Origin: Fimicolochytrium jonesii
Taxonomy: Eukaryota
Assembly: GCF_025526975.1 (NCBI RefSeq)
Contig: NW_026515668.1
Span: forward strand, 124,001 to 188,000
Direction of reading: 5' to 3'
Length of the DNA: 64,000 nt
In this document: piece after piece, positions 18,017-40,826 of the stretch
Layout of the letters: the number at the start of each line of letters is the position of its first letter
Numbering within the stretch: position 1 is the stretch's first letter
Translations under genes and position numbers: made by a program
Notes under the pieces: generated by a model
What the model was told of the DNA's origin: nothing
Seen by the model: only the letters and a program-made list of their open reading frames with translations
The model's database searches: none

Positions 18017-18067
18017 GTGGATCAGTGCATAGCATAAACCATTGGTTTATGCTATGCACTGATCCAC
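18017..18067. repeat. Perfect palindrome, 25-bp arms around a single central T (18042)
   Basis: GTGGATCAGTGCATAGCATAAACCA-T-TGGTTTATGCTATGCACTGATCCAC. Confidence 0.98.
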
Positions 18068-18831: not shown

Positions 18832-21515
18832 ATATACGTCTCTCCTTCTCTGGTCGCCTTTTTCAGTCCGAGGAACCATATGTTCCCTCTTATTTTTCGT
18901 TCCTTGATTTGAATGGTTGTTAGTTCTTTGAAGAATTGCTGCTTTCCGACGCGCCTCGATTGATCGAGAACCGTAACGGAATACTCCTTGTATAAATCAG
19001 ATCTCGTCACTCGGTCCTCATCACTTCCTGTGATATCGTAGTGGAACTTCAACCATTTCGCTGCTGCCAAACTGTTCGCTAGGTTCTTTTGGGTGAAGGC
19101 TCGTACCTCTGCAGGGACTTCAATGCTCATATTGAGGGTTTTATCTTCCTTCACAAAACGTTTGCGGAATATGCCAATGAGAAGCAAGATGAACTCGTCC
19201 CGACATGCATTCGTTTTGAAGTATCCTTTCAATTTCATATCACCTTCTTTTTGAAGTTGTTCCTCCTGAATTCCATCTCCCTCTTCCTCGATTGGTTCAG
19301 AGCCATTGAGAGTGAAACTGTATGGAAACTCTTGCATTCGCACCCGATTGCACAATGCGAGGTCTATTTTATCAAAGACCGGGTCTTCATTTGTCTGAAC
19401 ATTGGTTTGCCCAGTGATTGGAAAACTGATGGGTTTACCGTTAAGTGTTCTCACTGTTATCTTATCATTCCCTGACACTTTCTTGAACATTTCAGATAAA
19501 AATCGATCATTCTTATTTGTTTCGCTTGTCATCAGATACCTCTTTCCGAAGCAATTGTATAGTTGCGAGTTTGCTTTGTCAACATCTTGCTGCTCTCGGG
19601 TAAAGTTTTTCTTGTCCAAGGTATAGAAGTAATTTCCAAACGTAACAGCAAGGAGAGTACCTTCCACACCCTTTCCGTTCCGACCCGGCCCCTTGAGGAT
19701 TGTGAAGATTTCCTCAACTAGTTCTCCGTAGAGACACCTCGCAACATTGCAAAGTCGGTAAGTCATCAATTCTTCAGTTCGGAATATAGATTGGTAAAAG
19801 TTTTCAATCTTCTCACGCATCTCAGGGCTTCGTGTCGTCGGATAGTTGTAACCACATGTGAATAGTATGTAATCATCCCATTTGATGGGTCTTGCCTCTC
19901 CTTCAATCAGGTCGTACACTTTATCGTTAAAAGCAAATAGGTGAGGCTTTGAGAGAAAAAGTTCGATGCAGGTGTCGTTTGCGATACAGAGCCGTTCCAC
20001 GTTCTGTGCTACATTGATGGAGTACGTAGTCTCCTCGATCAGCATTCGAAACTTTTCGTAAATCAATCGCAGTTTCAAATACTTACCGTGCTCACTTTTT
20101 TGTGATTCAAAATCATCTAGTAGTTTCTCAAAACTGCTAATCAACGTGTCTGCAATCTGAAGATTCAAGTCGCTATTTCGGACCCCGCCCTCATACTTTC
20201 GCCAGATATTATCTTTGCCTAGAACAAACATCAAGCCGCTTGAATGTTTTAATAAAGTCTCACCTCGCTCTTCAATGAACCATTCAGCGGTATTCTTGTG
20301 GCTAATATTCAAAATTCGGCGGAAATCAAACTTCTCCCAACCTGTTAGACCTTCCAAATCTTCACAAGTTACAACAATATCCTTTTCTTCACTCGTTTTT
20401 GCGGGTTCAGTAATGGGCGGGAACAAGTCCAAGATCTTTTTGCTTTTATGAACATAGGTTTTTGAGCGTTCACAGTGCTGACATTTGAACGTGAATTTTT
20501 TTCGATCCACTATGAAGAATATTTTGGGAACGGAGACATCGTGTTCTGCGTGGTGCAACATGCAGTATGTGGTTCTCAAAAATACCACAATCGCATCCTC
20601 ATATTGTTGTACGGCCCCAAAATCTCTTTCCAAATATTCCGTTTTTCCACAGAGTTTGGTAACTGAATCGTAAATAGTGCTGATTACCTCCGTATTAGCA
20701 TCGTTGTAAATAGGATATTTTGCCTTTTTCTTCTTTGGTTGCGGTTGGTCTTCAAGGTCCGAGTCCGGAACCAGGACAAATTCATCATTGGCAGGACGCT
20801 TTCTACTATCAGATTGAATTGTCCATTCAACCGGGGTCCAGTCCGCCTCTACATATTGAATGATATACGAAGAGATTGGTGCATCCGGTTCGCTTTTGAT
20901 GAGAAGTCGGTTATCCCAACGATTTTTGACTTTGTCCACCATCACCATGGACCGATTGTTGTCATAGACAGAAAGATCAAAAAATCCATCCTTGAAATTG
21001 TAGTCTCGAACAACATCCGGGAAGTCGGACAAATCTGGGATGAATTTCTTGAGTTTCTTCTTCATTTCATTCCGGGTCGTATACATACCGTCTGCCCATA
21101 GGCGATAAGAGACTTTATATCCACCACCGGTTTCGACGTATTTACCATTTTTGTCCTTGGTGTGCTTAGGAGCGTATCCCATTGTACGGAACGCAGAATG
21201 AAAAGTAATATCCTCATTTAAATACAAGGAGGTAAATACTTTATCAACACCTTTACGGATTTCAGTCTCGACTTCTTCAGAGGGCAGATCGGATTCTTCC
21301 TCAAATCTCATATCGAAATCGACAAACAATTTGATCTTGTCATTGGCGCCCAATTTTGTAAAGTTTTCGGTAAGCCACTTGTGTTCCATATGTTTCTTTT
21401 CGTATTCTTCGAGTGTCCAATTGAACTCGGGAACACCTCCGAAGTAAGATTCCTTGAAATGATAGATGTCTCTGATAGGTTTGGATTCAACGTGAGCAGC
21501 AAATTTGGAAGACAT
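18825..21515 (-). CDS. AEP-type primase / Zn finger / D5-like SF3 helicase fusion (896 aa)
   Basis: N-terminal KLFVDFD, KVSYRL and FDLSVYD primase-like motifs. C..HHAEH...CQHC metal site. FAFNDKVYDL (D5_N), Walker A GPGRNGKG, LMTSE, KKVSGNDKITVR. Stop codon lies inside the TIR. Confidence 0.88.
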   Translation of the reverse strand: MSSKFAAHVESKPIRDIYHFKESYFGGVPEFNWTLEEYEKKHMEHKWLTENFTKLGANDKIKLFVDFDMRFEEESDLPSEEVETEIRKGVDKVFTSLYLNEDITFHSAFRTMGYAPKHTKDKNGKYVETGGGYKVSYRLWADGMYTTRNEMKKKLKKFIPDLSDFPDVVRDYNFKDGFFDLSVYDNNRSMVMVDKVKNRWDNRLLIKSEPDAPISSYIIQYVEADWTPVEWTIQSDSRKRPANDEFVLVPDSDLEDQPQPKKKKAKYPIYNDANTEVISTIYDSVTKLCGKTEYLERDFGAVQQYEDAIVVFLRTTYCMLHHAEHDVSVPKIFFIVDRKKFTFKCQHCERSKTYVHKSKKILDLFPPITEPAKTSEEKDIVVTCEDLEGLTGWEKFDFRRILNISHKNTAEWFIEERGETLLKHSSGLMFVLGKDNIWRKYEGGVRNSDLNLQIADTLISSFEKLLDDFESQKSEHGKYLKLRLIYEKFRMLIEETTYSINVAQNVERLCIANDTCIELFLSKPHLFAFNDKVYDLIEGEARPIKWDDYILFTCGYNYPTTRSPEMREKIENFYQSIFRTEELMTYRLCNVARCLYGELVEEIFTILKGPGRNGKGVEGTLLAVTFGNYFYTLDKKNFTREQQDVDKANSQLYNCFGKRYLMTSETNKNDRFLSEMFKKVSGNDKITVRTLNGKPISFPITGQTNVQTNEDPVFDKIDLALCNRVRMQEFPYSFTLNGSEPIEEEGDGIQEEQLQKEGDMKLKGYFKTNACRDEFILLLIGIFRKRFVKEDKTLNMSIEVPAEVRAFTQKNLANSLAAAKWLKFHYDITGSDEDRVTRSDLYKEYSVTVLDQSRRVGKQQFFKELTTIQIKERKIRGNIWFLGLKKATREGETYIE

Positions 21516-21620
21516 GGTGCTTTACTAAGAATACACTTAGAAGTTTAAATGGCATTTAAACGCAAGTAACAAAAATAAACATATATGTACCAATAAAGAA
21601 GCATCGTTATTGCTACAAAG

Positions 21621-21902
21621 ATGTACATTCCTTACAACTATATTGCATCACTCTTTGAGGATGGAGAAATCAAGACTGTCACAGGCCGGAGCGTCCGTGA
21701 TCTTGCTAGAAAACTAGATATTGCCGCATCCACTGTTGCGCGAATTTTGGGTAATGTAGAATCATGCAGGACGCGGAGACACATCACCATCAAAAGGACA
21801 CTGAAAGAGCCTTTGAGTACGAAATCAGATGATCGGGATCAATCCGAATCGAATTCTATCTTGAAACCTTTAGGTTCCTTTGACTTGACCCAACAATCGT
21901 AG
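21621..21902 (+). CDS. Small putative helix-turn-helix DNA-binding protein
   Basis: SVRDLARKLDIAASTVARIL fits an HTH pattern. Divergent from the primase gene. Confidence 0.55.
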   Translation: MYIPYNYIASLFEDGEIKTVTGRSVRDLARKLDIAASTVARILGNVESCRTRRHITIKRTLKEPLSTKSDDRDQSESNSILKPLGSFDLTQQS

Positions 21903-22045
21903 CAGTATGGCCGATTTTTGATGTAGGGAATAGGTTCTGATTGGCATTCAGCGGTCTTGCATTTTCGAGTTCCTTCCGGGTAATTAATTTTGCCTGAAGG
22001 AGAGCGCTTTGGATACCAAGGACGCATTGTTTCTTTGAAATTCAT
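21839..22045 (-). CDS. Small putative zinc-finger protein (68 aa)
   Basis: CKTAEC...YCYDC cysteine pairs. Overlaps the convergent HTH ORF. Confidence 0.4.
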   Translation of the reverse strand: MNFKETMRPWYPKRSPSGKINYPEGTRKCKTAECQSEPIPYIKNRPYCYDCWVKSKEPKGFKIEFDSD

Positions 22046-22107
22046 TCAAATTGATATGTACAAGGAACTATTTACTTATTTACAATTGTAACGCATATTT
22101 CCACAAA

Positions 22108-24399
22108 CTACTCTTCAATGGCTTTTGATAGGATGTCAATATCGCTCAGTAGGAACTTATCACGTCCTCCATGTTTGTCCCCCTCCTCTTCCTTCAACCG
22201 GATCCCGTAAAACCCGGTTGTTTGGACCCCGTCGATTCGTCGGTTCGTACCAAAGGAGACGGCAGGGTACGCGTGAAGCAGGAAAGCCTTGAAATCCTGG
22301 GTCCGCGGTGAGCATTTGCGCCATACTGGATGCTGTTTTGTCCAATTTTGGAGGCACGCCATAGCCATGCATTGTCGCATTTTGGCGCCTTCTTCAATAG
22401 CGCACATTTCTTTTACAAAAGTTCGATACGGATGCACTCTTGTGACTAAATCTGCAGTCGCTGAAATCACTGACGCGGGCTTGCTCAGTAATGGATATTC
22501 TTCCGTTTGAAGATGATCGTGATGCAAAGAAACCATGAGTGCCATCATGGCACTCGCTAAGTCCCGGTCTTCGTTGTTGATGAGCCGGTCGAGTTCACCG
22601 TCCTTGTAATATACATGTTGACTCGGATCTTCATGTTCATGAGCGCTGACGAACTTCGATTTGCAAGGTATTACAACCAACTTGTCCGTAATATCTCTGT
22701 GATCGTTGTCGTAGAGTCCACAATCGAAATATGGAAGATGATTTGTAGCGAGAACAACCAATCCCGTTATCGTAAGTTCTTCATTCTTGCCATAAGCCCT
22801 CCTAACGTACGCAGAATCTCCTCCGACAGCCATTTTGACGGCCGAGCCGGAATACAAATCCTTCTCATCCCCTTCAGAAAACCAAGTGATAAGTGTTGAT
22901 TTTTGCCCCATTTTCCAGTGAATGTCAGACGGCTTATTTCCGTTCCCCGGTTTGCTTTGTAGGCTGCTGGCGGTCGCTCCCAGAAACCGATAACATGTCA
23001 TAAGTTTCATCAATCTTCCAACCAAACTTTTGCCATTGGAACTTGGACCGTAAAGTATAAGCAGTTCACGAAGACCGCGTCTGCTTCCCAGGATGGTACT
23101 GAGATTGGTGAGCCCGAAGAAACGATCGGAGGAATCAGGCCACATTTTGCAAAAGGCATCCCACAAGTACCGCTGTTTGGGATACTTCTCGGGATCCCAC
23201 TCAACAAGATCATAGTCAAACGCTTCAATATCGCCGTCTTCATCGGTGCGCTCCCGATATTCACCGACTTTTCGGTCGTAAACAAGGCCGTTTCTGAAAG
23301 CGATCAGATGGCTGTTGTCCACAGGAGGCTTGGCGTCCTCAGCCTCCCTCCATCGCAATCGTCCGAATATGATGTCGACAACCTTCTTGGCTCCTTTACC
23401 AATTTCATGCTTTGCGCCTTCGCTTTGATTCTTGTCGGTGGTATTAAAACAATCGAATAATACTTGACCAACGTACGCGGTGAAGGCTGTTTTGTCGAAG
23501 TGGGTGTTTGTGCGCGTCGCAGGATTCCATCGTACGAAGCCTTTGGTGTCGTTCAATCGAATGAGATGCCCATAAAACCGTTCGAAGAACTCGGCGGCAG
23601 GGGTTACCCATTGACCCTTTTTCTTTTTGTCCTCTGTTGATTTCGGGTTTATGTGTGCTATCAAAGCATGGCCAAATTCCCAAAACGAAACACGGATAGT
23701 GCACGGTTTGCATTGACACTGGAACATATCATGAGTCGATCCTGCCTTCTGCGAAGAAGCCAGATCTTCATGAGAAACAAGCGCGGTGCTGCCATCGATA
23801 GATTTGTGACGTTCCTGGGGGTCATCATTGTTGGCGGCGATTTGGTTGTTGTCAATCTGGATCTCTTCGTTTTCATTGACTTTCATCTGCAATCTAGGGA
23901 TATCGGGCGGGTTGACACTCGGAGTGCCCGGAAGGATTCGGTCAGGCACATCGTCCAGACGTACCTGGGGATGATCGTTATTGACATCGGTTTGGTTGTC
24001 AATCATGACGTTTTCATTTTGATTGACATCCATCTGCAAGCCAACGAGACCGGGCTTGTTGATCGTCGGAGTGTTTTGAGTCGAAGGAGAATCCAATGGC
24101 TCGATGCTCAAATTCATAGGATCGATATCGAAAATATTGTCCAAGTCCAACGCAACTGGGAAGTCGATATGGTCTTCATTGCAATTCACTTCGTTATTGA
24201 TCACATTTAAAGACCCCGGTTCAGCCCTTTGGACGGTACGTTTGGCTTTTTTGATGCGCTTCGGAGCCAATTCCATGGTGTTTTGGCGTTTTTGCATGTT
24301 GAGAACGTGCGTTGGTTGAAAGTTATGGCGAAAGCGGTTGTGTGCAATAGTTGTTAAGAGTGAGGAACTGTTTGAAATTTTTTGAAGGGAAACAAACAT
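22108..24399 (-). CDS. Second D5-like SF3 helicase without a recognisable primase domain
   Basis: IAFRNGLVYD (D5_N), Walker A GPSSNGKS, WFSE, KMAVGGDSAYVRRAY, LATNHLP. True start may be a downstream Met. Confidence 0.85.
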   Translation of the reverse strand: MFVSLQKISNSSSLLTTIAHNRFRHNFQPTHVLNMQKRQNTMELAPKRIKKAKRTVQRAEPGSLNVINNEVNCNEDHIDFPVALDLDNIFDIDPMNLSIEPLDSPSTQNTPTINKPGLVGLQMDVNQNENVMIDNQTDVNNDHPQVRLDDVPDRILPGTPSVNPPDIPRLQMKVNENEEIQIDNNQIAANNDDPQERHKSIDGSTALVSHEDLASSQKAGSTHDMFQCQCKPCTIRVSFWEFGHALIAHINPKSTEDKKKKGQWVTPAAEFFERFYGHLIRLNDTKGFVRWNPATRTNTHFDKTAFTAYVGQVLFDCFNTTDKNQSEGAKHEIGKGAKKVVDIIFGRLRWREAEDAKPPVDNSHLIAFRNGLVYDRKVGEYRERTDEDGDIEAFDYDLVEWDPEKYPKQRYLWDAFCKMWPDSSDRFFGLTNLSTILGSRRGLRELLILYGPSSNGKSLVGRLMKLMTCYRFLGATASSLQSKPGNGNKPSDIHWKMGQKSTLITWFSEGDEKDLYSGSAVKMAVGGDSAYVRRAYGKNEELTITGLVVLATNHLPYFDCGLYDNDHRDITDKLVVIPCKSKFVSAHEHEDPSQHVYYKDGELDRLINNEDRDLASAMMALMVSLHHDHLQTEEYPLLSKPASVISATADLVTRVHPYRTFVKEMCAIEEGAKMRQCMAMACLQNWTKQHPVWRKCSPRTQDFKAFLLHAYPAVSFGTNRRIDGVQTTGFYGIRLKEEEGDKHGGRDKFLLSDIDILSKAIEE

Positions 24400-24531
24400 T
24401 TTTTTACCCTTTTATATTTTTTCGTGGCGGTTTTCCTTTCCGCAAACGGGAAAGAACAACATCCGCAACCTCACCTAACTGTAAAGTAAATGATATCAAC
24501 ATGTAGAAACAGTACCCAGGTGGTAACCGAC

Positions 24532-24845
24532 AGGAAACACCCCCGCGGGTGTTGGAAAACGGGAGGTAAAAAACACCCCCGCTTGCTCTGCTCAGTTATG
24601 GAAAGAAAACACCCACCGTTTTTTGTTTCGAGAAGAGTCAAATCACCCCCTCTTGGGGGTGATTTGTTTCTGTACCATTTTTACTCACTCCTCATGTGGG
24701 TGAATGCTTAATTTTAGTAACCTTGCCGCGGGGGTGGTTTCGGCTGAATAGACGGCGCAGGTGTGGGCGATTCTGCATGATCATACTCGGGGAAGTGGGG
24801 GTGGTTCTGTACTGATTAAAGTTTTGTTTGGGGGTGGGTGTTTTC
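24532..24845. repeat. Symmetric array of AAA(C/T)(A/C)CCCC motifs around a 12-bp hairpin
   Basis: Forward copies at ~24535, 24570 and 24606. Hairpin CAAATCACCCCC-TCTT-GGGGGTGATTTG at 24639-24666. Inverted copies at ~24730, 24797 and 24831. Confidence 0.7.
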
Positions 24846-24966
24846 TTGAATCCTGATGAAATCGGAGTTCCACCTGTAAGTATTCGCGCGCGATGACATA
24901 AACATGCGTTTAAGATCGATATTAGCGCTGTGATTAAATTTCTTTTTTAAAGAGTAAAAACGAGTA

Positions 24967-26119
24967 ATGGTTTATGCACAACCAAAGAACGACACAGCAA
25001 TGAACATTGAACTAGCAAAGAAACTTATCAACCGTTATGCCGATACCGTCCAACAAAAGAATGGACGGATAGGATTGGCTGCGAGTAGTCGAAAAACGTA
25101 CCTCTCTGCCTGTAATGCACTTGAAGCATACGGGACTCTTGATCCGAACGTTCTATCATCGCCAACCGATGTCATGAAAATCTTGAAAAAGAATTACCCC
25201 AAAGAGTGGAGCGAATTGTACAAAGGTGTTGTCTGCTATGTTCAAAATTATGACAAACGAGGAAAAAATAGGATTGTACGATTGGCTTTCGTCTAGCCTC
25301 TACGGTGAAACTGCAAAGAAACGATTCCTAGATGCGTGCACAATGGACAAACTTACGCATATTGACGAAATGGGAGGTTTCTATCTCAAGATCAATAGCG
25401 ATCGTTGTAAAGAGATACAAGCCCGCGATCTCGTAATGGATAAAGAATATGAAACGAAGCGCTTCATTGAAAAAGACCCTTTAATCAACGCTCTTTACGA
25501 GAAATTGGATCAACTTAAAGAAAAGGCGGTCAAAGACCCTTATAAGTATGGTTTGTTGCTTGGAGCGGCTTGTTTCGTTGGGTCGGATGTTATTCAAAGA
25601 GCGGACATTGGCCAAGCAAAGTTTATGCACATTTCCGAAGCGGATAATGTTACATTTGATACGGAAACCCATACCTTTCTTATAAAAATATGTAATAGGA
25701 ATAAGGGGGACACCGATGTTCTTATTACGGTTATCGATGACATTGTCAAAAGGCACATTGATAATCTGGTTGATATTCGTAAGGCCAAAGGACAGAGTAA
25801 ATTGTTTGAAAAAGCGCGAAACGCAGGTAAACCCTATGAAGGCGGAGGTTTTGGAAGGGCTATGAAGATCGCTTGTAAACAACATATCGGAAAAGAACTC
25901 GGAGTCAATGAACTTAGAAAAATCGTAGTGATTGACTCGATCAAATTGGATAACGGAGATCCTAGGGTCCAAAAAGAGTTTGCGAAAAAGCATGGTCATT
26001 CCTATGCAACACGACAAGTGTATTATAACCTTCACAGGGAGAACGAAGGCTCATCTAATGATTATGCGATGGATATCGACGATCTTAATGACGATTTAAA
26101 TCTAGATGACAAGTTTTGA
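24967..26119 (+). pseudogene. Tyrosine recombinase (YR), split by one frameshift near 25200
   Basis: ORFs 24967-25296 and 25226-26119 overlap in adjacent frames. C-terminal catalytic pattern: QRAD (R), RNK (K), VNELRK (H-x-x-R position), HGHS, VYY (Y). Confidence 0.75.
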
Positions 26120-26126
26120 AAACCTA

Positions 26127-27365
26127 TTATCCATTTTGCTCTTCATACTCGGCTATGGCCTCCCGTGCATTTTCGAGATTCCCTTCATCTTCCCAAGTTG
26201 ATTGGGACGCATCATAACCACTCCATAGAACCTTGTACTGCTTTATCCTTCTGTTGCCTCTACGTACTACTCTTGAATCAAGTATTGAATCAATTTCGTA
26301 TTCGTCGTTTTCATTTGGATCTGGCTGGGAAGCGATGTTTGGTACGGTGACAGTTCCATCAGGAACCAAGCGAAGATCGTTAGCAGATGTTAAACCGGGA
26401 AGTCTTGTTCCATCCATTCGGTTTAATCTATACGATGAAACATAACCTGCATAGTTACTTTGCACTTTCCCATCAATTCTATAAGTTTGTGACGAGAAAT
26501 ATCCCACCTTTGCGCGCCTTTTGATACCACTCGGTAACGGTATTATCTTTCTTACAACATCTCCCACTTTAAATTCGTTCAAAACTGTTGATTTCACTCC
26601 TTTCAATTTCTTGTTCCGTATGCGATCAAATATGGCTTCATGTTCATCTTGTAAGATTTCGTTTGAAGCCTTCCCTGTCGCATACGTTTTCGTGTTGTTT
26701 AAATTATCTATGAGTTTTTGAAGATAATTTGGCCAATCCCGTTTTCCGAATTGGATCGAGGAATAGATCAGATTTTTTATATTTTTGTTAACGGATTCTA
26801 TCTGTCCTTGTCCTTGCGGGACACCGGGTTGTCCGAACTTCCACTCCACGTTATTCGAGTCAGCCCACTCTTGCACCAGACCTTGAAATTCCGTACCTAC
26901 ATCGGATGTGAAACTTACTAATACAGCGCCATCCCGTTTCATTGTTTCTAGAAACTTGACAACAGTGGCTTGATCTTGTGTCTTCATTGCCATACTGTAC
27001 ACTTTTTTGGTGAGAATGTCTGAAGCGTTGACAGAATACTTATATCCATTGTATGCTACGGACAGCAAGTTTATACAATCGATCTGGTAGTTTCCTTCTT
27101 TTCTGGCCAAAATCGGTTTTATCGAGCCTCGGGATCCCATAACTTTTGTGCTCCTCTGCCAAATCTCTTGCTTCTTGAGAAAGTCGTTAAGAAGGGTTCT
27201 TTGCGAAATCCTACTATTTGGAAACGCTTTTCTATATGCATACCACAATTTGTCTCGTCCTAGAAAGTTTTGATTCTGATAATAAAACGTAGTGAGGTTC
27301 CGGAGATCCTCGGCAGTGATGGGGTCATATCGAAGAGAGGAGGTTCCTGTGTTGTCGGAGTCCAT
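26127..27365 (-). CDS. Retroviral-like (RVE) DDE integrase with C-terminal chromodomain (412 aa)
   Basis: YQID...SDVGTEF...QGQIESVNKNIK catalytic D-D-E. Chromodomain EYEIDSILDSR...YKVLWSGYDASQSTWEDEGNL. Confidence 0.93.
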   Translation of the reverse strand: MDSDNTGTSSLRYDPITAEDLRNLTTFYYQNQNFLGRDKLWYAYRKAFPNSRISQRTLLNDFLKKQEIWQRSTKVMGSRGSIKPILARKEGNYQIDCINLLSVAYNGYKYSVNASDILTKKVYSMAMKTQDQATVVKFLETMKRDGAVLVSFTSDVGTEFQGLVQEWADSNNVEWKFGQPGVPQGQGQIESVNKNIKNLIYSSIQFGKRDWPNYLQKLIDNLNNTKTYATGKASNEILQDEHEAIFDRIRNKKLKGVKSTVLNEFKVGDVVRKIIPLPSGIKRRAKVGYFSSQTYRIDGKVQSNYAGYVSSYRLNRMDGTRLPGLTSANDLRLVPDGTVTVPNIASQPDPNENDEYEIDSILDSRVVRRGNRRIKQYKVLWSGYDASQSTWEDEGNLENAREAIAEYEEQNG

Positions 27366-27642
27366 CTTTGTTTATCAATTGACCACAAATTAATGTTGTG
27401 GCCAATTTTTGTCATTTTTGGGTGAAGTTGATAAAACACCTGGGCCTGTTTCTTGGGCTTGATGCAGTCAATTAAGAAGTCAAACTGTATAGGTAAAGCC
27501 CGAATCAACCTGAAAAAGCACAACCCAAATATTAAAATGGCACTAATTGTTCAGGAGTTTGGTCGCGCGGAAGATGTCTTTGTTGCTTAACTTGCAGGAA
27601 AACAGTTTTACGTCATATTTAGGACGGAAATCTTGGAAACTT

Positions 27643-27864
27643 TCAAGCGGCCTTTTTTCTTCTTGGAGTTTGAACTGGAACCTGCTTGTCCAAATGCGAC
27701 TGAACGATATTCACAACTATTTCTTCCTTACATTGCTGTAAAGTTCTCGTCCTTACGTCCTCCGGCATGTCTAACCAAAGCCTATCCTGTGATAGGTCTT
27801 CCAGAAGTTTGTCAAAAGATTCTTTGGTCAGCGAATTTGGCAAATAGAAAATGTTATCAACCAT
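27643..27864 (-). CDS. Small hypothetical viral protein
   Basis: ORF between the integrase and ATPase on the same strand. MVDNIF start preceded by an AGTATA motif, basic C-terminus PRRKK. Confidence 0.45.
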   Translation of the reverse strand: MVDNIFYLPNSLTKESFDKLLEDLSQDRLWLDMPEDVRTRTLQQCKEEIVVNIVQSHLDKQVPVQTPRRKKAA

Positions 27865-27893
27865 TCTATACTTTAAGTACACGAAATTTTTCT

Positions 27894-28628
27894 TTAATGC
27901 GTTTCTGGTTGCAATTCTTTAAAGACTCCTTCGTTTGTCGGGCTTTTCAAATCGACGTAGAGCGCATGATAAGGTTTGACAGTATATTTCTCTGCTAAAT
28001 TTACAAACTCCGATTCTGACAAATGACAGCGAATCTCACCCGCAATCTTCTCGTACTGTTTCTGATTAAGTCGATACAAAATCCAATGGGTGGAATTCAC
28101 TCGTTGTAAAGGAGTGAGTTGTTTCGTGTCATGCAGGCTGCATAAAAGACTCCCCCCTGCGTGTCGAAAGCGGGAGTAAAGTAAGTCTAACATCTGTCGG
28201 ATGCCGCTCGATATCAGTTCAGGTTCTTTAGGCTCCTTTCCGATTGCGGGGCCATTTTCTTTTGCGAGAATTCCGAAATCATCGAGGATAAGAAGAAGGT
28301 GATTTTTGGATTTGTCTTGTTTATAAAGAAGTTTCTGCTTCTCGAAAAGGTTGTTCAGAATGTAATTCGATACTACGCTGGACATGTATACATTATCGCA
28401 TTTCTTCAAACTGGTCCATTCCGGCGAGTCAGCGCTTGGAGAGAAAACCACAACATTTTCATACGCTTTTGCACAATTCTGGATGAGATTGATAATACAA
28501 GTAGTTTTCCCTGCTCTTGAACTCCCGACTAGAGTCAAAGTGAAGAATTTCTTCGGATAGTCATCGGGCGTTTTGTCCTTTAGGTGTATCTGATATTCGG
28601 AAGGAATTTTCGGTTTAGCAATTCTCAT
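27894..28628 (-). CDS. A32-like (FtsK/HerA family) genome packaging ATPase
   Basis: Walker A GSSRAGKT, Walker B LLILDD, SRFRH motif and LTPLQRVN. Adjacent to capsid genes. Confidence 0.9.
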   Translation of the reverse strand: MRIAKPKIPSEYQIHLKDKTPDDYPKKFFTLTLVGSSRAGKTTCIINLIQNCAKAYENVVVFSPSADSPEWTSLKKCDNVYMSSVVSNYILNNLFEKQKLLYKQDKSKNHLLLILDDFGILAKENGPAIGKEPKEPELISSGIRQMLDLLYSRFRHAGGSLLCSLHDTKQLTPLQRVNSTHWILYRLNQKQYEKIAGEIRCHLSESEFVNLAEKYTVKPYHALYVDLKSPTNEGVFKELQPETH

Positions 28629-28683
28629 ATTTAGCGCACTCGTAAAATTAATCTCTTTACATTATACAAAAGATAAGAAATCG

Positions 28684-29433
28684 ATGTTTCGAGAGATTAT
28701 CCTCAATTCTGGTACGTTACCAGATATGAATAATTGTACATTTCGTCTTCAAAATACCGTCCCGTGCTATGCATGGAGACTGATTTCGGTATCTCTACTG
28801 CAGTCATGGAGTGCGACATCGGATTTCAACAACGCAGTTGTTTTTGCAGAGTCAGGATCTACGACTTTAAGAAAAGCAACTTTGCCCGAAGGGACCTATG
28901 ACTCAACAAACATTTTGAGTGCTCTTGGAAGCGCAATGACTGCAGCGGGGTCGCAGCCATACAGTGTTTCTTACGATGGAGTGACTCGACGACTAACTGT
29001 TTCAACCTCTGGAAGTAAAACGTTCAAGATCCTTGGAGGATCCCGTGGTTCAAGCGCTTTTCTGCAACTTGGGATCGATAAAGTCAATGAAACCGGATAT
29101 GGATCAAGTATAACATTTCCAAACACACTCAATCTATCCGCATCACAACCAATTCTAATAACTTCAAGGACTCTACAGACAAATGGAGCGATTCTTTATC
29201 CGGCTGGTATCGACTCGGGCATCAATACCTTAGCGGCGATAAATCCTGATTCGTATGGAGATATCTTGACATGGGTCAACCCGAGTGACAACTTTCATCG
29301 AGCCGAAGATCTCACACTCAATCAAATTGACTTCCAGATTGTAGATAGCGCATCGTTGCAAATTGTGAGAACATCCGCCCCAATAACAATTCATCTGGGA
29401 ATTTTAGACGACCCTAGTGATCTCGTTGTATAA
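28684..29433 (+). CDS. Minor capsid (penton) protein, putative single jelly-roll
   Basis: Begins I-x-L-N-S, carries the LPEGTYDSTNILSAL motif typical of PLV/virophage pentons, beta-rich. Lies between ATPase and MCP. Confidence 0.75.
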   Translation: MFREIILNSGTLPDMNNCTFRLQNTVPCYAWRLISVSLLQSWSATSDFNNAVVFAESGSTTLRKATLPEGTYDSTNILSALGSAMTAAGSQPYSVSYDGVTRRLTVSTSGSKTFKILGGSRGSSAFLQLGIDKVNETGYGSSITFPNTLNLSASQPILITSRTLQTNGAILYPAGIDSGINTLAAINPDSYGDILTWVNPSDNFHRAEDLTLNQIDFQIVDSASLQIVRTSAPITIHLGILDDPSDLVV

Positions 29434-29474
29434 CGAATTGTTTTTCTCTTCTGTACAGTAAAACATTGAACAAA

Positions 29475-29945
29475 ATGTCAGAAAACGAAAGCGTATCTAC
29501 TGAAAACCCTTCTGTACAGGAAGAAAAACCAATTGTTGACGACCCGATCACCGAGGCTGTTATTGAAAAGGTGAAGGTCAAAAAACCGCGATCTGAAAAG
29601 CAGATCGAAGCAATGCGTCGAGCGCAAGAGAAACGTACCGAGAACTTGAAGAAGATGAAGGAAATCAAAGCGAAAGTAGATAAAGAGCAGGAAAAGGAGC
29701 AAGAGAAACGGGCAAAAGAATCTAAAAAAGACGAAGCAAGAAAGATAATTGAGAAATATGAAGCGGAAAAAAAGAAAATTGCTGAACAAAAGCGACAAGA
29801 GCGTATAGCGAAAATCAATCGAATGCCGAAAGCGCTTCAACCTGCTGCGTACAAAGACGACTCTGTTGAGCAAAACACGTTTGTAGAATTTGATCCTCCC
29901 GAAGCAGATGATGACCCGTATATGGGAATCTTTGGTGGGCGTTGA
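29475..29945 (+). CDS. Charged coiled-coil hypothetical viral protein
   Basis: K/E-rich ORF with KKPRSEKQIEAMRRAQEKR inside the structural cluster. Confidence 0.75.
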   Translation: MSENESVSTENPSVQEEKPIVDDPITEAVIEKVKVKKPRSEKQIEAMRRAQEKRTENLKKMKEIKAKVDKEQEKEQEKRAKESKKDEARKIIEKYEAEKKKIAEQKRQERIAKINRMPKALQPAAYKDDSVEQNTFVEFDPPEADDDPYMGIFGGR

Positions 29946-30000
29946 TGAACCTCGATTATTTTTTTCTAAGAGATAGGTTAAACCATTATAACTTAAAATA

Positions 30001-31224
30001 ATGTCAACAAATCCCGTTGTTCCTTCAAACTGGATCTATAGTAGCAGACAATTTTCGATGCATTCAGACGCTCTCAGCGAAAATATTGCTGTATATCGCA
30101 CAATCAAGGAGACGTTTAGTTCAAAATCACCTGGAAATGCTATAAAAATCGTGGTTGATTCCAATAGTTCCTTTTTGAGACCTCAACGTTCGTATCTATC
30201 GGGAACAATTTCTGTGAAGAACGCGGATGGCAGCCCCGTCACGGATGCGCAGATTTCTCAAATCGGGGCGATGGCTTGCTTCCGAACGATGAACATAAAA
30301 TTTGGCGGAAAAGTTGTAGACGAAATTGAAGATATGCCAAGTTTTGTTGCGGACACTCTCCAGTTTGTGGAGGCAGAGAAACGAAAATACCTAAAATATA
30401 ACGAAGGAGCAGGTAACGCGGATGCGTTCAAAAATCCCAACGGAACTTTCACATTCAAACACCATTTGTTAGCAGGGTCCATGAGAAATTTGAACGGAAA
30501 CCCGATTCCACTAGCGATTTTGCCAAATCAATCGGTGGAATTGACATTTACTTTGAACACACCACAGCAAGCCTTTACAAACGTCGGTTCTGGAGTATAC
30601 TTTGAAGTTTCAAATCTTCGTTATGTAGCACAACTTGTGGTCCCGAGTGCCGCTTATATGTCCGCATTGTGGTCCGGGATAAGGGCTGGTAAGTATCTTG
30701 AAATGGATGTAATAGGCGTTCAACAACTCTCCAATGTATGTAGTGGTGCGTCACAGAACAACTTCATCCTCCCACTTACAAACGGCCGGACTGTCGGATT
30801 AACACATAGGTTTAGAGACGATAATAAATACGCCACTACATCAGGGGACAAAAGTTTGATTTATGATACAGCGAACTTGAAGTCATGGCGTTACCAGATA
30901 GGACAATATAGATTACCTTTGACCGAAGATTTCCAAATAGAAGATACGGTTATGATAGGCAACCTCTCCATGAACGACAACACATCATACGCCTCTGAAG
31001 ACCTGGACCTCGATAACTTTTACAACAAACAGTTCGTAATGCGTTATTCGTGGCAAAGCGCAGATGAAGATTCCAGTAGCGCTTTGAACCTACTCGGAGG
31101 CTCCGGAAACGTACATCTAATTACGACACATAATTTACCCGCCCCTAGTACCGCCGTCGCATTGCAAACAACCGTCTATTCACAACGCACCATCTTGATT
31201 GGAGCAACCGTCGATATCGTATAA
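30001..31224 (+). CDS. Major capsid protein, putative double jelly-roll (407 aa)
   Basis: FLRPQRSYLSGTI and FRTMNIKFGGKVVDEIED resemble PLV MCP N-terminal motifs. Size, beta-rich composition and context next to penton and ATPase agree. Confidence 0.8.
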   Translation: MSTNPVVPSNWIYSSRQFSMHSDALSENIAVYRTIKETFSSKSPGNAIKIVVDSNSSFLRPQRSYLSGTISVKNADGSPVTDAQISQIGAMACFRTMNIKFGGKVVDEIEDMPSFVADTLQFVEAEKRKYLKYNEGAGNADAFKNPNGTFTFKHHLLAGSMRNLNGNPIPLAILPNQSVELTFTLNTPQQAFTNVGSGVYFEVSNLRYVAQLVVPSAAYMSALWSGIRAGKYLEMDVIGVQQLSNVCSGASQNNFILPLTNGRTVGLTHRFRDDNKYATTSGDKSLIYDTANLKSWRYQIGQYRLPLTEDFQIEDTVMIGNLSMNDNTSYASEDLDLDNFYNKQFVMRYSWQSADEDSSSALNLLGGSGNVHLITTHNLPAPSTAVALQTTVYSQRTILIGATVDIV

Positions 31225-31251
31225 AATTTTTTAATCATATAGTAGAAACCA

Positions 31252-31389
31252 ATGCCGAGAAAACAAAAGGTTTTGAAACCAGTTCGCATACATGACAGAA
31301 CTAAATCTGGAAAACCGAAAAAAGGTGTAATCCCTCCACAACTGCTTCCATTTATCCTTGCTCGACGAGCCGGGAAGAAGATCGTTTGA
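31252..31389 (+). CDS. 45-aa highly basic peptide, candidate DNA-condensing core protein (not in ORF track)
   Basis: MPRKQKVLKPVRIHDRTKSGKPKKGVIPPQLLPFILARRAGKKIV*, directly after MCP and preceded by AGTAGA. Confidence 0.6.
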   Translation: MPRKQKVLKPVRIHDRTKSGKPKKGVIPPQLLPFILARRAGKKIV

Positions 31390-31477
31390 AACTTATGCGC
31401 TTTTGTACATTTCAGAATCCTCTATGATTCTCAAATATTACAATTATAATCTTCTATACAATTATGATCTTTTTATC

Positions 31478-32941
31478 TTATACTTTTCGTGCCCGTTTTG
31501 AAGATTGTTCCCAGCCGTGTTCATAAGATAATCTCTCGGGAGGTAAACTCGTTCGTATACTTTTCTTTTTCCTTATTGGCGCGATGGGCGTATTTTCTGG
31601 AGCCCTCACTGCTGGGGAATCGGTGAAGATGTCTCTCTGTGTTGGTGTTGCAGAATCCTCATTTCGGGAAAGAACTTGAGTAATCGGTTCGGCGGTAACA
31701 AACTGTTCAATTGGTGTGGAGAGATCCAGAGGGGATCCTACCGTTCCAGTTGAAAGGGTAGATTTCGGACTCCTATTCGGGAAAATGTCGCTTTGAGTGA
31801 CTGCTGAACTGGCAGATGGATAACTTATTGTTGGTGAGAAATTCGTAATTATTGGTGGTGGGCGTGGTCTAGCAACCCGTGGCACATCTCCATGAGAATA
31901 TTGTGTCCCTACATCTTTGCTTTCTGTAATCTTTTCCTTTCTTAAAGTTTCTATCAATCTTTGCATCGCTCCCACCTCACTTAATGCGATAGGTGTGACG
32001 CTTTGCACTTGGCTGAGAAGTCGTTCCATCTCGTCCGGCGTCATTGTCGAAGGAACATTTTTAAAACCTACCGATTCTAACATTCTTTTGAACGTAGACA
32101 TTGTGGCTGTTGTCATCCTTCCAAGTTGCTCTTCTTGGGATCGGAGTTGTGTTTGCAAGGTTTGATTCGCGTGAGCCACTCCATCCATAAAATGTGTAAA
32201 TTTTCCTCCAGACGAGAATATAAGATCTAACGTATCGCTGTCTAGATCCGGTGTTGTACTCTGCGTTTCAACTGTTCTAAGATCTCGAACCCGATGGAGA
32301 GGAATATCTGTCTGTGTGCGGCTATTTGACATGCTTATCTTTTCAGCAGAACCGATTCGACCAATTTCGTCCGTCATTGTTTCACGATCGTTCATTTTTG
32401 TTACCACCTTGTTGTTACCAAGTATCGTATTGGTTTCGCTCATGTTTGCTTTTTCCGGAAGGTGATCATCACCGGTTCGTTGCACATTGGATGATGCATC
32501 TCCAATGAATTGATTCTGTTGAGCGCGAATGTAACTCGGCTGATGGTAAATTGTATCGCCTTTCGACGCTGTGGTTTTGGTCAAAGAGACCGTTCGACCT
32601 TGTCGAGGGAAAAGATTGTCTTTATCCAGTTCATCAAAGTATGCTTGTCTTGCACGTTCCTTATCGATAGCATGGAGCGCTTCCACAGCCTGTTTTCCAA
32701 TCTGAGACTGGTACTCTCCTTCACGGAGTTTGAGTGGTTGATCTACAGTCTTTTTTATAGAGAATGCATCCGATATTTTCCCTTTGCCTGGAACAAAGAA
32801 GGGAGTTTTGAATAAACGGTCAAAGGTCTCTTCCGGCTTTCCCTGTATGTAACCGAACTGATTTGAATGGATATTCAACACTGGAGGGGAGGGAAAAGTA
32901 TTGTTTGGCAATCGAGCAAACTTGTCGTCAAGAACCAACAT
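31478..32941 (-). CDS. Hypothetical viral protein (487 aa), S/T/P-rich C-terminus
   Basis: Long intronless ORF with no recognised domain. Confidence 0.75.
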   Translation of the reverse strand: MLVLDDKFARLPNNTFPSPPVLNIHSNQFGYIQGKPEETFDRLFKTPFFVPGKGKISDAFSIKKTVDQPLKLREGEYQSQIGKQAVEALHAIDKERARQAYFDELDKDNLFPRQGRTVSLTKTTASKGDTIYHQPSYIRAQQNQFIGDASSNVQRTGDDHLPEKANMSETNTILGNNKVVTKMNDRETMTDEIGRIGSAEKISMSNSRTQTDIPLHRVRDLRTVETQSTTPDLDSDTLDLIFSSGGKFTHFMDGVAHANQTLQTQLRSQEEQLGRMTTATMSTFKRMLESVGFKNVPSTMTPDEMERLLSQVQSVTPIALSEVGAMQRLIETLRKEKITESKDVGTQYSHGDVPRVARPRPPPIITNFSPTISYPSASSAVTQSDIFPNRSPKSTLSTGTVGSPLDLSTPIEQFVTAEPITQVLSRNEDSATPTQRDIFTDSPAVRAPENTPIAPIRKKKSIRTSLPPERLSYEHGWEQSSKRARKV

Positions 32942-32989
32942 AGAATGGAATATATATTCTTTAGTACATGTTAAGAAAAAGAATATTCA

Positions 32990-33286
32990 ATGGGATTCTT
33001 TCAAAAAGCGAGAGGAAAAGCGCGCACATTTTTTAACGAACTGCCACAAAATATCGGAAAGGCGAGGAATTTTCTAGACAAAGCGGTTTCCGTTACTCGA
33101 AAGGGATATGCGATAGCAAGCCATGTAAACAAAGGGATTCAAGAGAATGATGTCTTCCACGATAAAATCAAAGAAACTGCGCGAAAAGGGCAACAGTTTG
33201 CAGATCTGGGAATAAAGAAGGTTGAAGATTTCCATAAAGGCGGTGATCAATTCTTAGAACATTTACAGCAAACTCCAATCGGATAA
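32990..33286 (+). CDS. Small amphipathic-helix viral protein (98 aa)
   Basis: MGFFQKARGKARTFFNELPQNIGKARNFLDKAV. Sits upstream of the fibre gene. Confidence 0.65.
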   Translation: MGFFQKARGKARTFFNELPQNIGKARNFLDKAVSVTRKGYAIASHVNKGIQENDVFHDKIKETARKGQQFADLGIKKVEDFHKGGDQFLEHLQQTPIG

Positions 33287-33306
33287 TTTTCTTTAGCAAT
33301 TAGTAA

Positions 33307-36300
33307 ATGAGCGGTCTAAATTCCCGAACCTCAAGCGGAATCAGAGTGCTTGAACGAACAAATCTCGTTTCTCCTTTAGTGACCAATAGTCTTCGTGCTA
33401 ATGGAGAGAACGTATCAATTGATAATTTCATTCAGCAGGCTTTCAAAAGGTATCAAATGAAAACGGACCGATCCTTGTGAATGACATCGTTGAGAGCGAA
33501 GATGCGATTATTCACAAAACCGAAGGAGTGGCTTCAATTGAAGTAGTCCATGACAATATGGAATTTCCACTTGCAAGAGACGACGGAAGCCGAACTGTTT
33601 CCCTTTTGACAAACCTGCCTCTTGGAGTAAGTCAGGACGGATTGACTTTGTTCCACGATCAGACTCTTTCAGTGAGCAATGAAGGTTTGACTGTAAATTT
33701 TCCCCCGCCTGATCTGGAAAATCTGCAAGAACCCTTGTCAAGAGACGATGAAGGACTTAAATTGAATTTTGATGAGGATTCATTGGAGGTGAATAATGGT
33801 AAATTGGAAGTTGTCAAAGAGCCTTTGACAGCCCCTTTGACGCGTAGCGTACAAGGACTCTGTCTTGATATTGACTCTACATTGACAGTTGAAAACGGTC
33901 AGTTGTCAGTTGTTCAAGAAAATGTTGAAGCGATTGTTGACGAGGCTGTTCGAGTAGAAGTTCCGCTTTCAAAAGATGCAGATAAGGCTATCCACCTCGA
34001 TTATGGGAAAGGGTTGAAAGTAAACGATGAAGGGAACTTGGAAACCGACGTTGATACAGTGATTGTTGGGAGAGGGGCTATTTCAAACGATAAAGCAGGA
34101 AGTCTGGCACTCGATGATCTCCTGCAAGAAGGTTTTGATTCCCTTGCGGACTTTTTAGGAGAAGATACGGATGTTGATACAACCGTTGTGCGTTTGAGGA
34201 CATCTGACGACTTTCAACAGACTGGGAACAAATTGGCGATCCGTTCGAAGGGTATGGGGCAAATACCATTCTATTCTGCATTATCGGGGTTAAATGGAGA
34301 CAGTAGTTTTATGTATAATGAAACACTCAATGAACTACATGTTCCGCATGTATACGTTAACAGCAACTTCAACCCTTCGAATAATGAAGTGGTGACATCC
34401 GGGAACGTAGAGCAATTGTACCAAGCAGGGTCAGGTATAGACATATCCGGAGTGTCCAATGGTCGGCGTACTATCGATGTTAGAACAGATGCAAGTTTAG
34501 CAATTGACTCTTCACAAAATCTTTCAGTAAATCCGTCGGCTATCGTTGACAATAAAGGTGTTCGCATCGTAAATGATAAAATTGCGATAGGACTAACTTT
34601 TCAACCTGGAAATGGCGGATTGAAATTAGAGAATTCGAATCAAGTGAAACTCGCTCCATCTGTCTCAGGTTCAATCACATTCGATGGTAACAACACGTTC
34701 GGTGAGAAACTCACAGCAAGTAACGGAGTTAAACGCATAGAAGATGATTTGCAGTTGGATTTACAGCCTGGTGATTCGACTGTTACGGTAGCAGGCAATT
34801 CGATTAAGGGCGCATATACAGGATCTAATGGAGTGTCAGTTACGGGAAACACTATTTCCGGGGCCTACACCGCCGGAAACAATATATCCATTTCAGGGTC
34901 GAGCATCAGTTGCACATATCAACCTGAGCCGGAAACACCAACGGTAATTACCGGCGCTTTACCTATCATTGTAACTGGAGCAGATAAGGAGTATAACATC
35001 GCGAAACAACCTTTGGTTTTAACAGGGGGCTCCGGAATCCTCGTTGTTGGCTCCGAGGAAACCGGTTTCAATATCTCCTCGATTCAGCCCTACAAAAACC
35101 GGAAAGAAGATGATGATCCAGAAGAGAAAAATGAGGATTCGGAGCCCAGTGGCGAATCTGATCCTTTAACAGCATCTGGATCTAATCCCGTAGTCTCCGT
35201 TACCGGACCCCTTTCAACAATCCTTGGAGGCGCGGTTGGTCTCATTGGCCCTGCGGCTGGCGCTCCATTTGCCACATCTGCTATCGGTGGCGTCGGGGGT
35301 CTTCTTGGAGGACCTGCTGCAGCAGCCGGAATCCTTGGTGGTTTCATCGCTGCAAGTGGTCGAGAGAGAAAGAACCAGAAAGACGCAAATGGTAACAATG
35401 TAGTGGATTCAAAGGGAAACCCTGTTCCAGATCCAAACGGCTCACAAGTTATCATTGCAACTTTCCCTAAAACGGATGATACATCCTGTGATGTTACAAG
35501 ATTACTTTTTGACACTCCACCTCCATGTTCATATCTTGGTATTGCAGGAGAGGTCCCACAGCAGGCAATCAACTTGCAGATGCTCCGCGAATACGATTCT
35601 ACAATCATACAGCCAACTTATTCAAATTTGATAAGTCAGAATACAAGTCTTCTTTTAACTGCTATCGATAGTAAAGTCGCAAAAACGGATACCATTCCGT
35701 ATGCGAGAATAACGGGTGCTCCAGATCTCACCATCTACGAGAAGAAATTAACATTTGCTGGACCTATAATTTCCAGAGATACATCTAATACCATTTCCGT
35801 TAATACCGGAAATATCACTACCCTTGGGACACTCACATCTCTTAACGTAACAGGCGCTTTGACCGCCGGCTCCATAAGCAGTCCCACTCTGAACAATTAT
35901 CTATTATCAAGTGTTGCTTCAACAACGTATCAACCTCTAAATGCTCGTCTTACTAATTTGGGGAACATTGCGCCAACAAACACGTACATGCTTATCGCAA
36001 GCGGAGGCAATTTCATTCAATTTAGTCCTGCAGATGTTCGTGCAAATCTCTCATTAAAAAATCTGAGTTTGCTCGATACTTTAGACTACACTAGTTCGGC
36101 GTTGGTGAACAAACCTACGCTTGGTTTGCTTGCAGCACTTAGCAGTATTGACTATGCTTCGACGTACATTACTGGAAAGCCAACTCTTAATTCTCTTGCA
36201 GCACTGAGTAATATAGATTACACTTCGGCTTTACTTACAAACAAGCCTTCGCTTGGTTCACTTGCAGCACTGAGTAGTATAGATTACACTTCGGCTTTAC

Positions 36301-40688: not shown

Positions 40689-40826
40689 AAATTTGAACTA
40701 CGTCTCGAAATCGCCCACTCCAAAATTATGCAAGGCGTCCGGAACAAAACACCCCCAGTGGGGGCGATTTTTACGAACCTCTTTACGTTGGGGGTGGGCG
40801 ATTTTACAAAGCCCATCACACGAACG

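What the first reader, a model, noticed from the sequence alone, without database searches (positions are those of the whole stretch)
24967..27365. Two mechanistically different integrases tail-to-tail: YR plus RVE-chromodomain
Seen: the YR gene (+) ends at 26119 and an intact DDE integrase with chromodomain (-) ends at 26127. Known: Polintons usually carry RVE and many PLVs carry YR, so both together is unusual. Inference: either two integration routes, or division of labour (end resolution versus insertion). The scar here favours the YR even though the RVE is the intact ORF. The chromodomain could steer the element to repeat-rich chromatin, in line with its position inside a retrotransposon.
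Basis: partly seen in the sequence, partly recalled or inferred. Interest (0 to 1): 0.75.

Follow-up and report, generated by a model that had tools for sequence, protein, structure and literature searches.

The report
Fungal virus with two integration enzymes
A 24-kb virus-like element in what is likely a chytrid fungal genome carries two unrelated DNA-inserting enzymes back to back, a pairing already reported in virophages, and its lopsided ends suggest that this copy was likely inserted as a circle by the recombinase whose gene now has a frame break.

Summary
Both genes are real. 26127-27365 (-) is an intact rve integrase with a chromodomain. 24967-26119 (+) is a tyrosine recombinase (YR) split by one frame change: its closest named relatives are chytrid proteins, and its model matches XerA/Cre. 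The stops lie 7 nt apart. The rve gene has no ends of its own and has viral base composition, so it is not a nested transposon. Both genes belong to a 24.4-kb Polinton-like virus without pPolB, with 772-bp terminal inverted repeats (TIRs), inserted in a decayed Ty3 gag. The pairing is not new: mid-GC EMALE virophages carry YR plus rve, with chromodomain targeting already proposed, and 20 of 61 related rve loci fetched here have a YR upstream. Papers read call it absent or retrotransposon-derived in PLVs, so a fungal PLV case is a new variant. The junctions are asymmetric: one 7-bp core at both ends and a 51-bp palindrome at the left end only. This best fits YR crossover from a circle (about 0.6). 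An rve insertion that lost its right palindrome remains possible (about 0.25). One insertion cannot show chromodomain targeting.

The parts
18017..42392 (.). Whole Polinton-like virus insertion, 24.4 kb, GC about 0.40-0.49 against host 0.51-0.60
18017..18023 (+). 7-bp core GTGGATC, left copy; the only direct repeat of 5 nt or more at the junctions
18017..18067 (.). 51-bp palindrome (25-bp arms, one central T); folds as a 24-bp stem with a 3-nt loop; present at the left end only
   Evidence: I19; -27.4 kcal/mol, z -14.6
18061..18831 (.). Left TIR, with repeated GCATTAACC motifs and an internal 245-bp duplication
   Evidence: 765 of 772 columns identical to the right TIR
18825..21515 (-). D5-like primase-SF3 helicase, 896 aa
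22108..24399 (-). Second SF3 helicase / primase-like protein, 763 aa
24967..25296 (+). Tyrosine recombinase, 5' piece (N-terminal domain), before the frame change
25226..26119 (+). Tyrosine recombinase, 3' piece (catalytic domain; R125, R158 in the Lys column, R231, H258, Y267, counted from 25226)
26120..26126 (.). 7-nt spacer between the two convergent stop codons; no room for a transposon end
26127..27365 (-). Intact rve integrase (D96, D155, E190) with C-terminal chromodomain (Y356, W381, Y384)
27894..28628 (-). A32-like packaging ATPase
   Evidence: Pox_A32 above cut-off
28684..29433 (+). Likely minor capsid protein
   Evidence: E 1e-7 to an unannotated ORF of locus L048; function inferred from size and position
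30001..31224 (+). Likely double jelly-roll major capsid protein, not of the Sputnik type by Pfam
   Evidence: feature score 0.98 to viral clusters, PF21738 on 10% of members; recognition value low; Capsid_N E 0.08 only
33558..40233 (+). Long repetitive fibre-like gene in two overlapping frames (change within 36853-37043)
41622..42392 (.). Right TIR; stops at the core and lacks the 44 outer bases seen at the left end
42386..42392 (+). 7-bp core GTGGATC, right copy
12900..18016 (-). Host Ty3/Gypsy relic (most of gag, protease, RT-RNaseH, truncated rve), frameshifted, no LTR pair found; left limit approximate
42393..42520 (-). Likely 5' start of the same gag, 45 open codons up to the junction

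Best explanation
The two genes are a tyrosine recombinase (split by one frame change) and an intact chromodomain rve integrase of one 24.4-kb Polinton-like virus, likely giving it two alternative insertion routes, and this copy was likely inserted by the recombinase from a circular form. Shown: both gene identities, that the rve gene has no ends of its own, the TIRs, the 7-bp core at both junctions, and the one-sided 51-bp palindrome. Inferred: the free genome has hairpin ends copied by its primase-helicases; copying gives a head-to-head TIR junction, which is a long palindrome; the YR crosses over at a 7-bp core 18 bp from the palindrome's centre with an identical 7-mer in the host. That puts the centre of the junction on the left end, shortens the right TIR by the same amount, duplicates the core and loses no host base. 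Inferred by analogy with EMALEs: the rve enzyme inserts linear genomes with target-site duplications, possibly guided by its chromodomain, and the YR may also serve insertion into a helper giant virus. The YR frame change likely postdates insertion or is an assembly error.
For: Fold and motifs of the YR. DDE triad and chromodomain aromatic residues intact. No terminal repeat around rve, 7 nt to the YR stop, GC3 0.40 like other viral genes (0.36-0.51) against host 0.62-0.77. Tips are not mirror images, so a canonical two-ended rve event is excluded; as a pure target duplication the 7-mer would equal the element's own sequence with p 8e-5. The host gag frame stays open only if the core is counted once: 45 open codons with an ATG, against 18 and 14 in the other frames. 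A 7-bp overlap lies in the 6-8 bp range of YR sites (PMC3212892), and a YR/helicase PLV of Phytophthora sojae is listed with a 7-bp 'TSD' (PMC7805220 Table S4). Decay after insertion is visible: 7 TIR differences, two at CpG, and a second frame change in the fibre gene. The pairing recurs: 20 of 61 rve loci, 17 of 28 with at least 1 kb upstream.
Against: A direct repeat of some length appears automatically if an element with palindromes at both ends loses most of the right one, so the 8e-5 figure does not exclude that rival. The frame test passes by chance one time in three. No inverted binding arms flank the core (6 of 16 matches; 49% of random TIR pairs do as well) and the host arms do not resemble the element's. 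The palindrome is nearly the length of the 52-nt end palindromes that lie next to target-site duplications in Halocafeteria virophages. The YR is broken here and has Arg in the column where 23 of 31 rows have Lys (6 of 31 have Arg). One junction only; no empty site, second copy or reads. None of the nearest relatives of either gene came with flanking DNA.
Confidence: 0.6

Rival explanations
1. The rve integrase made the insertion from a hairpin-ended linear genome, leaving a palindrome and a short target duplication at both ends; the right palindrome, its duplication and perhaps some host DNA were then deleted during or after insertion. The YR would serve another target, such as a giant virus.
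For: rve is the intact gene. Halocafeteria elements without pPolB have 52-nt palindromes next to target duplications. EMALEs, four types of which carry a YR, are flanked mostly by 3-5 bp duplications. From 18018 the left end reads TG, like retroviral-type ends (recalled; one chance in 16). An unchecked AI note describes a 44-bp end palindrome in another chytrid element.
Against: Needs an extra deletion that stops exactly 7 nt into the palindrome and leaves the gag frame open with locally typical Asp-Pro codons. No remnant of a target duplication on the right.
Confidence: 0.25
2. Division of labour: the YR is an end-resolving enzyme that processes hairpin ends or dimer junctions, and rve does all insertion.
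For: The two genes are neighbours of primase-helicases here and in loci L017, L025, L033. Dimer resolution by a YR has been suggested for entomopoxvirus ends (PMC11296320). The junction palindrome is what copying through a hairpin would give.
Against: No protelomerase among the Foldseek rows shown; XerA, Cre and Int lead. The palindrome has an odd centre, unlike protelomerase sites (recalled). End palindromes occur in a Halocafeteria PLV subtype that is not reported to carry both enzymes. Does not by itself explain the asymmetric scar; it can coexist with either insertion route.
Confidence: 0.15
3. The pairing is a passing state of gene replacement, rve displacing a YR that was already dead in the virus, with no joint function.
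For: The YR is the broken gene. The window's YR (chytrid clade) and rve (own clade) are both distant from the paired genes in aquatic loci and differ in orientation. Module replacement is the published model (PMC11296320).
Against: Catalytic-domain motifs are largely kept and there is only one break in about 1.15 kb, like the fibre gene. The pairing recurs in several lineages.
Confidence: 0.15
4. Host break repair or an assembly error around a palindrome produced the asymmetric ends.
For: Palindromes and G/C runs are error-prone; 4 of the 7 TIR differences lie at such runs. No reads could be checked.
Against: Both junctions are clean, the TIRs are 99% identical and the host frame reads through.
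Confidence: 0.08
5. The rve gene is a separate nested transposon (Ginger- or chromovirus-like).
For: Chromodomain integrases are typical of chromoviruses (recalled).
Against: No inverted or direct repeat brackets it, 7 nt to the YR stop; viral GC3; no RT; its relatives sit beside capsid, ATPase and primase-helicase genes; far from the host Ty3 integrase in the tree.
Confidence: 0.02

Closest known systems
Mid-GC EMALEs (endogenous mavirus-like virophages, types 5-7) of Cafeteria burkhardae, Hackl et al. 2021, PMC8547959 (passages read)
   Same: YR in addition to rve-INT, no pPolB, long primase-helicase, TIRs; chromodomain targeting of rve-INT already proposed.
   Different: EMALEs are virophages with mavirus-type capsid and maturation protease, and have short target duplications. 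This element has a non-virophage capsid, no protease found, a likely fungal host and an asymmetric shared-core junction.
Endogenous virophages and PLVs of Halocafeteria seosinensis, bioRxiv 10.64898/2026.07.28.741278 (section 7 read; supplements closed)
   Same: Terminal palindromes of about 52 nt in elements without pPolB; hairpin-primed replication model; both integrases in some elements, with host versus giant-virus targets proposed.
   Different: Both enzymes occur there in virophages 'but not PLVs'. Their palindromes lie next to target duplications; here there is one palindrome, at one end, and a shared 7-bp core.
Primase-helicase/YR PLVs, including oomycete and Spizellomyces elements (Yutin 2015 PMC4642659; Bellas and Sommaruga 2021 PMC7805220; passages and Table S4 rows read)
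   Same: MCP, minor capsid, A32 ATPase, primase-helicase, YR, TIRs; circular donor proposed; one YR element with a 7-bp flanking repeat.
   Different: Those carry one integrase type. The YR here belongs to a chytrid clade that Pfam Phage_integrase misses (0 of 12 members).
Maverick-Polintons
   Same: rve integrase, TIRs, capsid module.
   Different: No pPolB, no protease found, no symmetric ends with a 5-6 bp duplication.
Cryptons (YR DNA transposons), PMC3212892 (passages read)
   Same: Ends marked by a short direct repeat thought to be the recombination core; circular intermediate proposed.
   Different: Cryptons lack TIRs and capsid genes and have 4-6 bp repeats.

Membership tests
Tyrosine recombinase superfamily | Catalytic-domain fold of Xer/Cre/Int | tested here: met
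   Model pLDDT 87.5; XerA E 1.3e-4, prob 1.0, TM about 0.4; family profile hits Tn1549 Int E 1.2e-4
Tyrosine recombinase superfamily | R-K-HxxR-H-Y catalytic residues | tested here: inconclusive
   R125 (21 of 31 rows), R231 (29), H258 (27), Y267 (28) kept; the Lys column holds Arg here (K 23, R 6 of 31); the first His column is variable, Asn here
Tyrosine recombinase superfamily | Single intact reading frame | tested here: not met
   One frame change near 25226; real or assembly error not decided
YR recombination site | 6-8 bp core shared by donor and target | tested here: inconclusive
   7-bp repeat at both junctions; host origin rests on the gag frame; no empty site seen
YR recombination site | Inverted binding arms around the core | tested here: not met
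   6 of 16 matches, reached by 49% of random TIR pairs
Protelomerase / telomere resolvase | Fold closest to TelK/TelA/ResT | tested here: inconclusive
   None among the Foldseek rows shown; the second structural aligner gave no result
rve (retroviral-type) integrase with chromodomain | D,D(35)E triad in an intact frame | tested here: met
   D96, D155, E190 invariant in 10 of 10
rve (retroviral-type) integrase with chromodomain | Chromodomain with three aromatic cage positions | tested here: met
   Pfam Chromo E 3e-14; Y356, W381, Y384 align with Y/W/Y of Chp1; their role as the methyl-lysine cage is recalled, binding untested
Nested transposon (Ginger, chromovirus) | Own terminal repeats and target duplication, or RT | tested here: not met
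Polinton-like virus | Double jelly-roll MCP, minor capsid, A32 ATPase | tested here: met
   ATPase above Pfam cut-off; MCP by atlas features 0.98 and minor capsid by weak homology, both likely rather than proven
Polinton-like virus | 15-45 kb with TIRs and a helicase or pPolB replication gene | tested here: met
   24.4 kb, 772-bp TIRs, two SF3 helicases
Polinton-like virus | Placement in a named MCP or ATPase cluster | not testable with these tools
   No reference PLV set held; MCP scan of viral contigs found no relative
Maverick-Polinton | Protein-primed PolB | tested here: not met
   No DNA_pol_B_2 hit in the 17 element ORFs scanned
Virophage (Lavidaviridae, EMALE) | Virophage-type MCP and maturation protease | tested here: not met
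   No Sputnik_MCP or protease hit, while the same library detects the Sputnik MCP of locus L001; a very divergent protease could be missed

The most novel reading that the evidence does not exclude
A family of fungal Polinton-like viruses has hairpin-ended genomes and two working routes into DNA: rve joins opened hairpin ends, while an HMM-invisible YR integrates the circular form through a 7-bp core 18 bp from the tip of the head-to-head TIR junction. This locus would preserve that junction whole, defining a PLV attachment site to the base, and dual-integrase PLVs would be far more common than surveys report because Pfam misses these YRs.
Probability: 0.35. Interest if true: 0.75.

Novelty: new variant of a known kind. 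Interest (0 to 1): 0.5.

Why it matters
How YR-bearing PLVs integrate, and why some relatives keep two integrases, is proposed in print but untested in the papers read. This locus names the candidate substrate: a 51-bp junction palindrome, a 7-bp core and a matching target. It also extends the dual-integrase design from virophages to a PLV of a likely chytrid host, a group now known to carry giant viruses (PMC13533422, passages). Pfam Phage_integrase hit 0 of 12 members of the chytrid YR clade and 4 of 18 rows of the rve-linked set, so the published rarity (12 cases in 8300, all retrotransposon-derived; PMC12220804) is probably an undercount.

Tried and rejected
Word-index search with the YR ORF found nothing; with alignment A3 it gave 4 unhelpful hits. 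The single-sequence fold failed (pLDDT 34). Pfam, PHROGs and single-sequence PDB search do not see the window's YR. Viral-contig scans with the rve ORF, the MCP and the chytrid YR alignment, and the prokaryote genome scan, found no close relative with flanks. No sequencing run was listed, which is no evidence either way. No whole genome is held, so copy number, other junctions and dN/dS could not be measured. An intron as the cause of the YR split was rejected because homology leaves no gap. No LTR pair was found for the host Ty3. A loxP-like site was not found. The rve tree has no named Polinton, Ginger or chromovirus references, a long outgroup and many open forks, so it shows only that the window's rve groups with four unnamed proteins (SH-aLRT 94). 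Literature searches found no description of a fungal PLV with both enzymes or of a one-sided palindromic PLV junction. bioRxiv supplements were closed and the 2024 taxonomy review was not held; either may list such cases.

Full report
The element. A low-GC block (about 0.40-0.49 against 0.51-0.60) is bounded by inverted repeats at 18061-18831 and 41622-42392, identical in 765 of 772 columns. Inside are two D5/SF3 primase-helicase genes, an A32 ATPase, a likely minor capsid gene, a likely double jelly-roll major capsid gene and a long fibre-like gene. Pfam found no pPolB, protease or virophage capsid among the 17 element ORFs scanned. This is the anatomy of a Polinton-like virus. The host is likely a chytrid fungus: flanking genes include a PDR-type ABC transporter, and 4 of the 5 best YR homologs are named proteins of Fimicolochytrium, Gaertneriomyces, Powellomyces and Spizellomyces. 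The element interrupts the gag of a decayed Ty3 retrotransposon with no LTR pair in the window.

The YR. ORF 25226-26119 has no Pfam, PHROG or word-index hit. Exhaustive phmmer found 23 homologs, the best two at 39-40% identity over almost the whole ORF. The upstream ORF 24967-25296 matches their N-termini, and homology passes from one frame to the other near 25226 without a gap, so this is one gene with one frame change. A model built on 31 sequences is confident (pLDDT 87.5) and matches XerA, Cre, lambda Int and Tn1549 Int in the PDB and giant-virus recombinases. The family profile also hits Tn1549 Int (E 1.2e-4). R125, R231, H258 and Y267 are kept. The Lys column holds Arg, as in 6 of 31 rows, and the first His column varies across the family. 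No protelomerase appears among the rows shown.

The rve integrase. ORF 26127-27365 is intact, with D96, D155 and E190 invariant across 10 proteins and a chromodomain whose Y356, W381 and Y384 align with those of Chp1. It is not a nested transposon: only 7 nt separate its stop from the YR stop, no repeat brackets it, and its GC3 of 0.40 matches the virus, not the host. It groups with four unnamed proteins at 40-47% identity that came without flanks.

How unusual is the pair? I dropped one duplicate (L004), one chromodomain-only hit (L060) and one without a callable rve ORF (L042). Of the other 61, 20 carry a YR at E below 1e-5; among the 28 with at least 1 kb upstream, 17 do. All 20 lie upstream on the same strand, not tail to tail. 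They are redundant: of the 15 placed in the tree, 12 form one close clade and L002, L022 and L025 stand apart; 5 were too short to place. Forks between these are unresolved, so separate origins are not shown. L002 has a PF21738 capsid and an A32 ATPase, so it looks like a PLV with both enzymes. In print, all mid-GC EMALE virophages carry YR plus rve and lack pPolB, and chromodomain guidance was suggested there (PMC8547959, passages). A 2026 preprint finds both enzymes in virophages 'but not PLVs' (section read). A survey of 8300 elements found co-occurrence only through nested retrotransposons (PMC12220804, passages). Pfam Phage_integrase misses 12 of 12 chytrid-clade rows, so HMM surveys probably undercount. 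The pairing is a known design; a fungal PLV with a stand-alone, convergent pair is a variant not found in my searches. An unchecked AI note reports the same arrangement in another chytrid-type genome; I could not test it.

The scar. GTGGATC stands at 18017-18023 and at 42386-42392 and is the only junction repeat of 5 nt or more. It is also part of the TIR. The left end begins with a 51-bp palindrome (25-bp arms, central T) that folds as a 24-bp hairpin; the right end stops at the core and lacks the outer 44 bases. The two ends together contain exactly one head-to-head TIR junction, opened 18 bp from its centre. The host gag frame reads through if the core is counted once: 45 open codons with an ATG on the right flank, against 18 and 14 in the other frames. 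A normal rve event needs mirror-image tips and a duplication unrelated to the element; neither holds (p 8e-5 for the match). Crossover of a circle at a shared 7-bp core explains everything in one step. It fits YR chemistry (6-8 bp cores; PMC3212892, passages) and a listed YR PLV with a 7-bp flanking repeat (PMC7805220, Table S4 row).

The case against. Halocafeteria elements without pPolB have 52-nt palindromes beside target duplications. If this element once had a palindrome at each end and lost most of the right one, a direct repeat would appear automatically, and the 8e-5 figure would not apply. The frame test passes by luck one time in three. No inverted arms flank the core and the host target does not resemble the element's arms. 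An unchecked AI note of a 44-bp end palindrome in another chytrid element raised my weight for this rival. My judgement is about 0.6 for YR crossover and 0.25 for rve plus deletion, with the rest on repair or assembly error; the end-resolution and replacement readings concern the pair's function and can overlap with either.

The broken YR. The TIRs differ at 7 columns: three isolated transitions, two of them at CpG, and four differences at G/C or A runs; the fibre gene also changes frame once. So the copy has begun to decay or carries assembly errors, and a YR break after insertion is plausible. No reads were available to decide.

The chromodomain. The domain is intact, but binding is untested. 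The Ty3 relic is about 14% of the window's host DNA, so one landing says little, and under the favoured model the rve enzyme did not choose this site.

Verdict. This is a new variant of a known kind, with interest 0.5. The lasting value lies in a base-exact candidate attachment site and hairpin end, and in a YR family that standard profiles miss.

Noticed in passing
window 18825-24399: Two SF3 helicase genes in tandem on the same strand, with a small HTH ORF (21621-21902) between them; possibly a replication gene caught in replacement.
   Followed up: partly
window 40829-40895: A third copy of the inner 58-67 nt of the TIR; with the right TIR it brackets the 128-aa orphan ORF 41087-41473 as direct repeats.
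   Followed up: no
window 18032-18250 and mirror in the right TIR: GCAT(T/A)AACC occurs four times in the TIR and once on each arm of the palindrome; candidate binding sites for an initiator or recombinase.
   Followed up: partly
window 18259-18740: Each TIR holds an internal 245-bp tandem duplication, about 82% identical, rich in G6/C6 inverted runs.
   Followed up: no
window 24529-24850: Repeated AAACACCCCCGC motifs and several inverted repeats (one perfect 15-mer pair) in the divergent gap between the second helicase and the YR.
   Followed up: no
window 33558-40233: A fibre-like gene of about 2,200 codons in two frames, with an avian adenovirus fibre N-terminal Pfam hit (E 3e-13) and internal repeats.
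   Followed up: partly
window 41622-42392: The three isolated TIR substitutions are transitions that appear to lie in the right copy, two at CpG, hinting at host methylation.
   Followed up: partly
window 7388-7537: Interstitial telomere-like (CTAACC) repeats in host DNA.
   Followed up: no
L051:1430-2185 and L023:1340-1984: A GIY-YIG nuclease gene (Pfam hit for L051; L023 similar by eye only) sits between YR and rve in some aquatic loci.
   Followed up: no
L001:6342-8018: In a locus with a Sputnik-type capsid, the rve integrase has about 200 extra N-terminal residues that look by eye like a cysteine protease; not tested.
   Followed up: no
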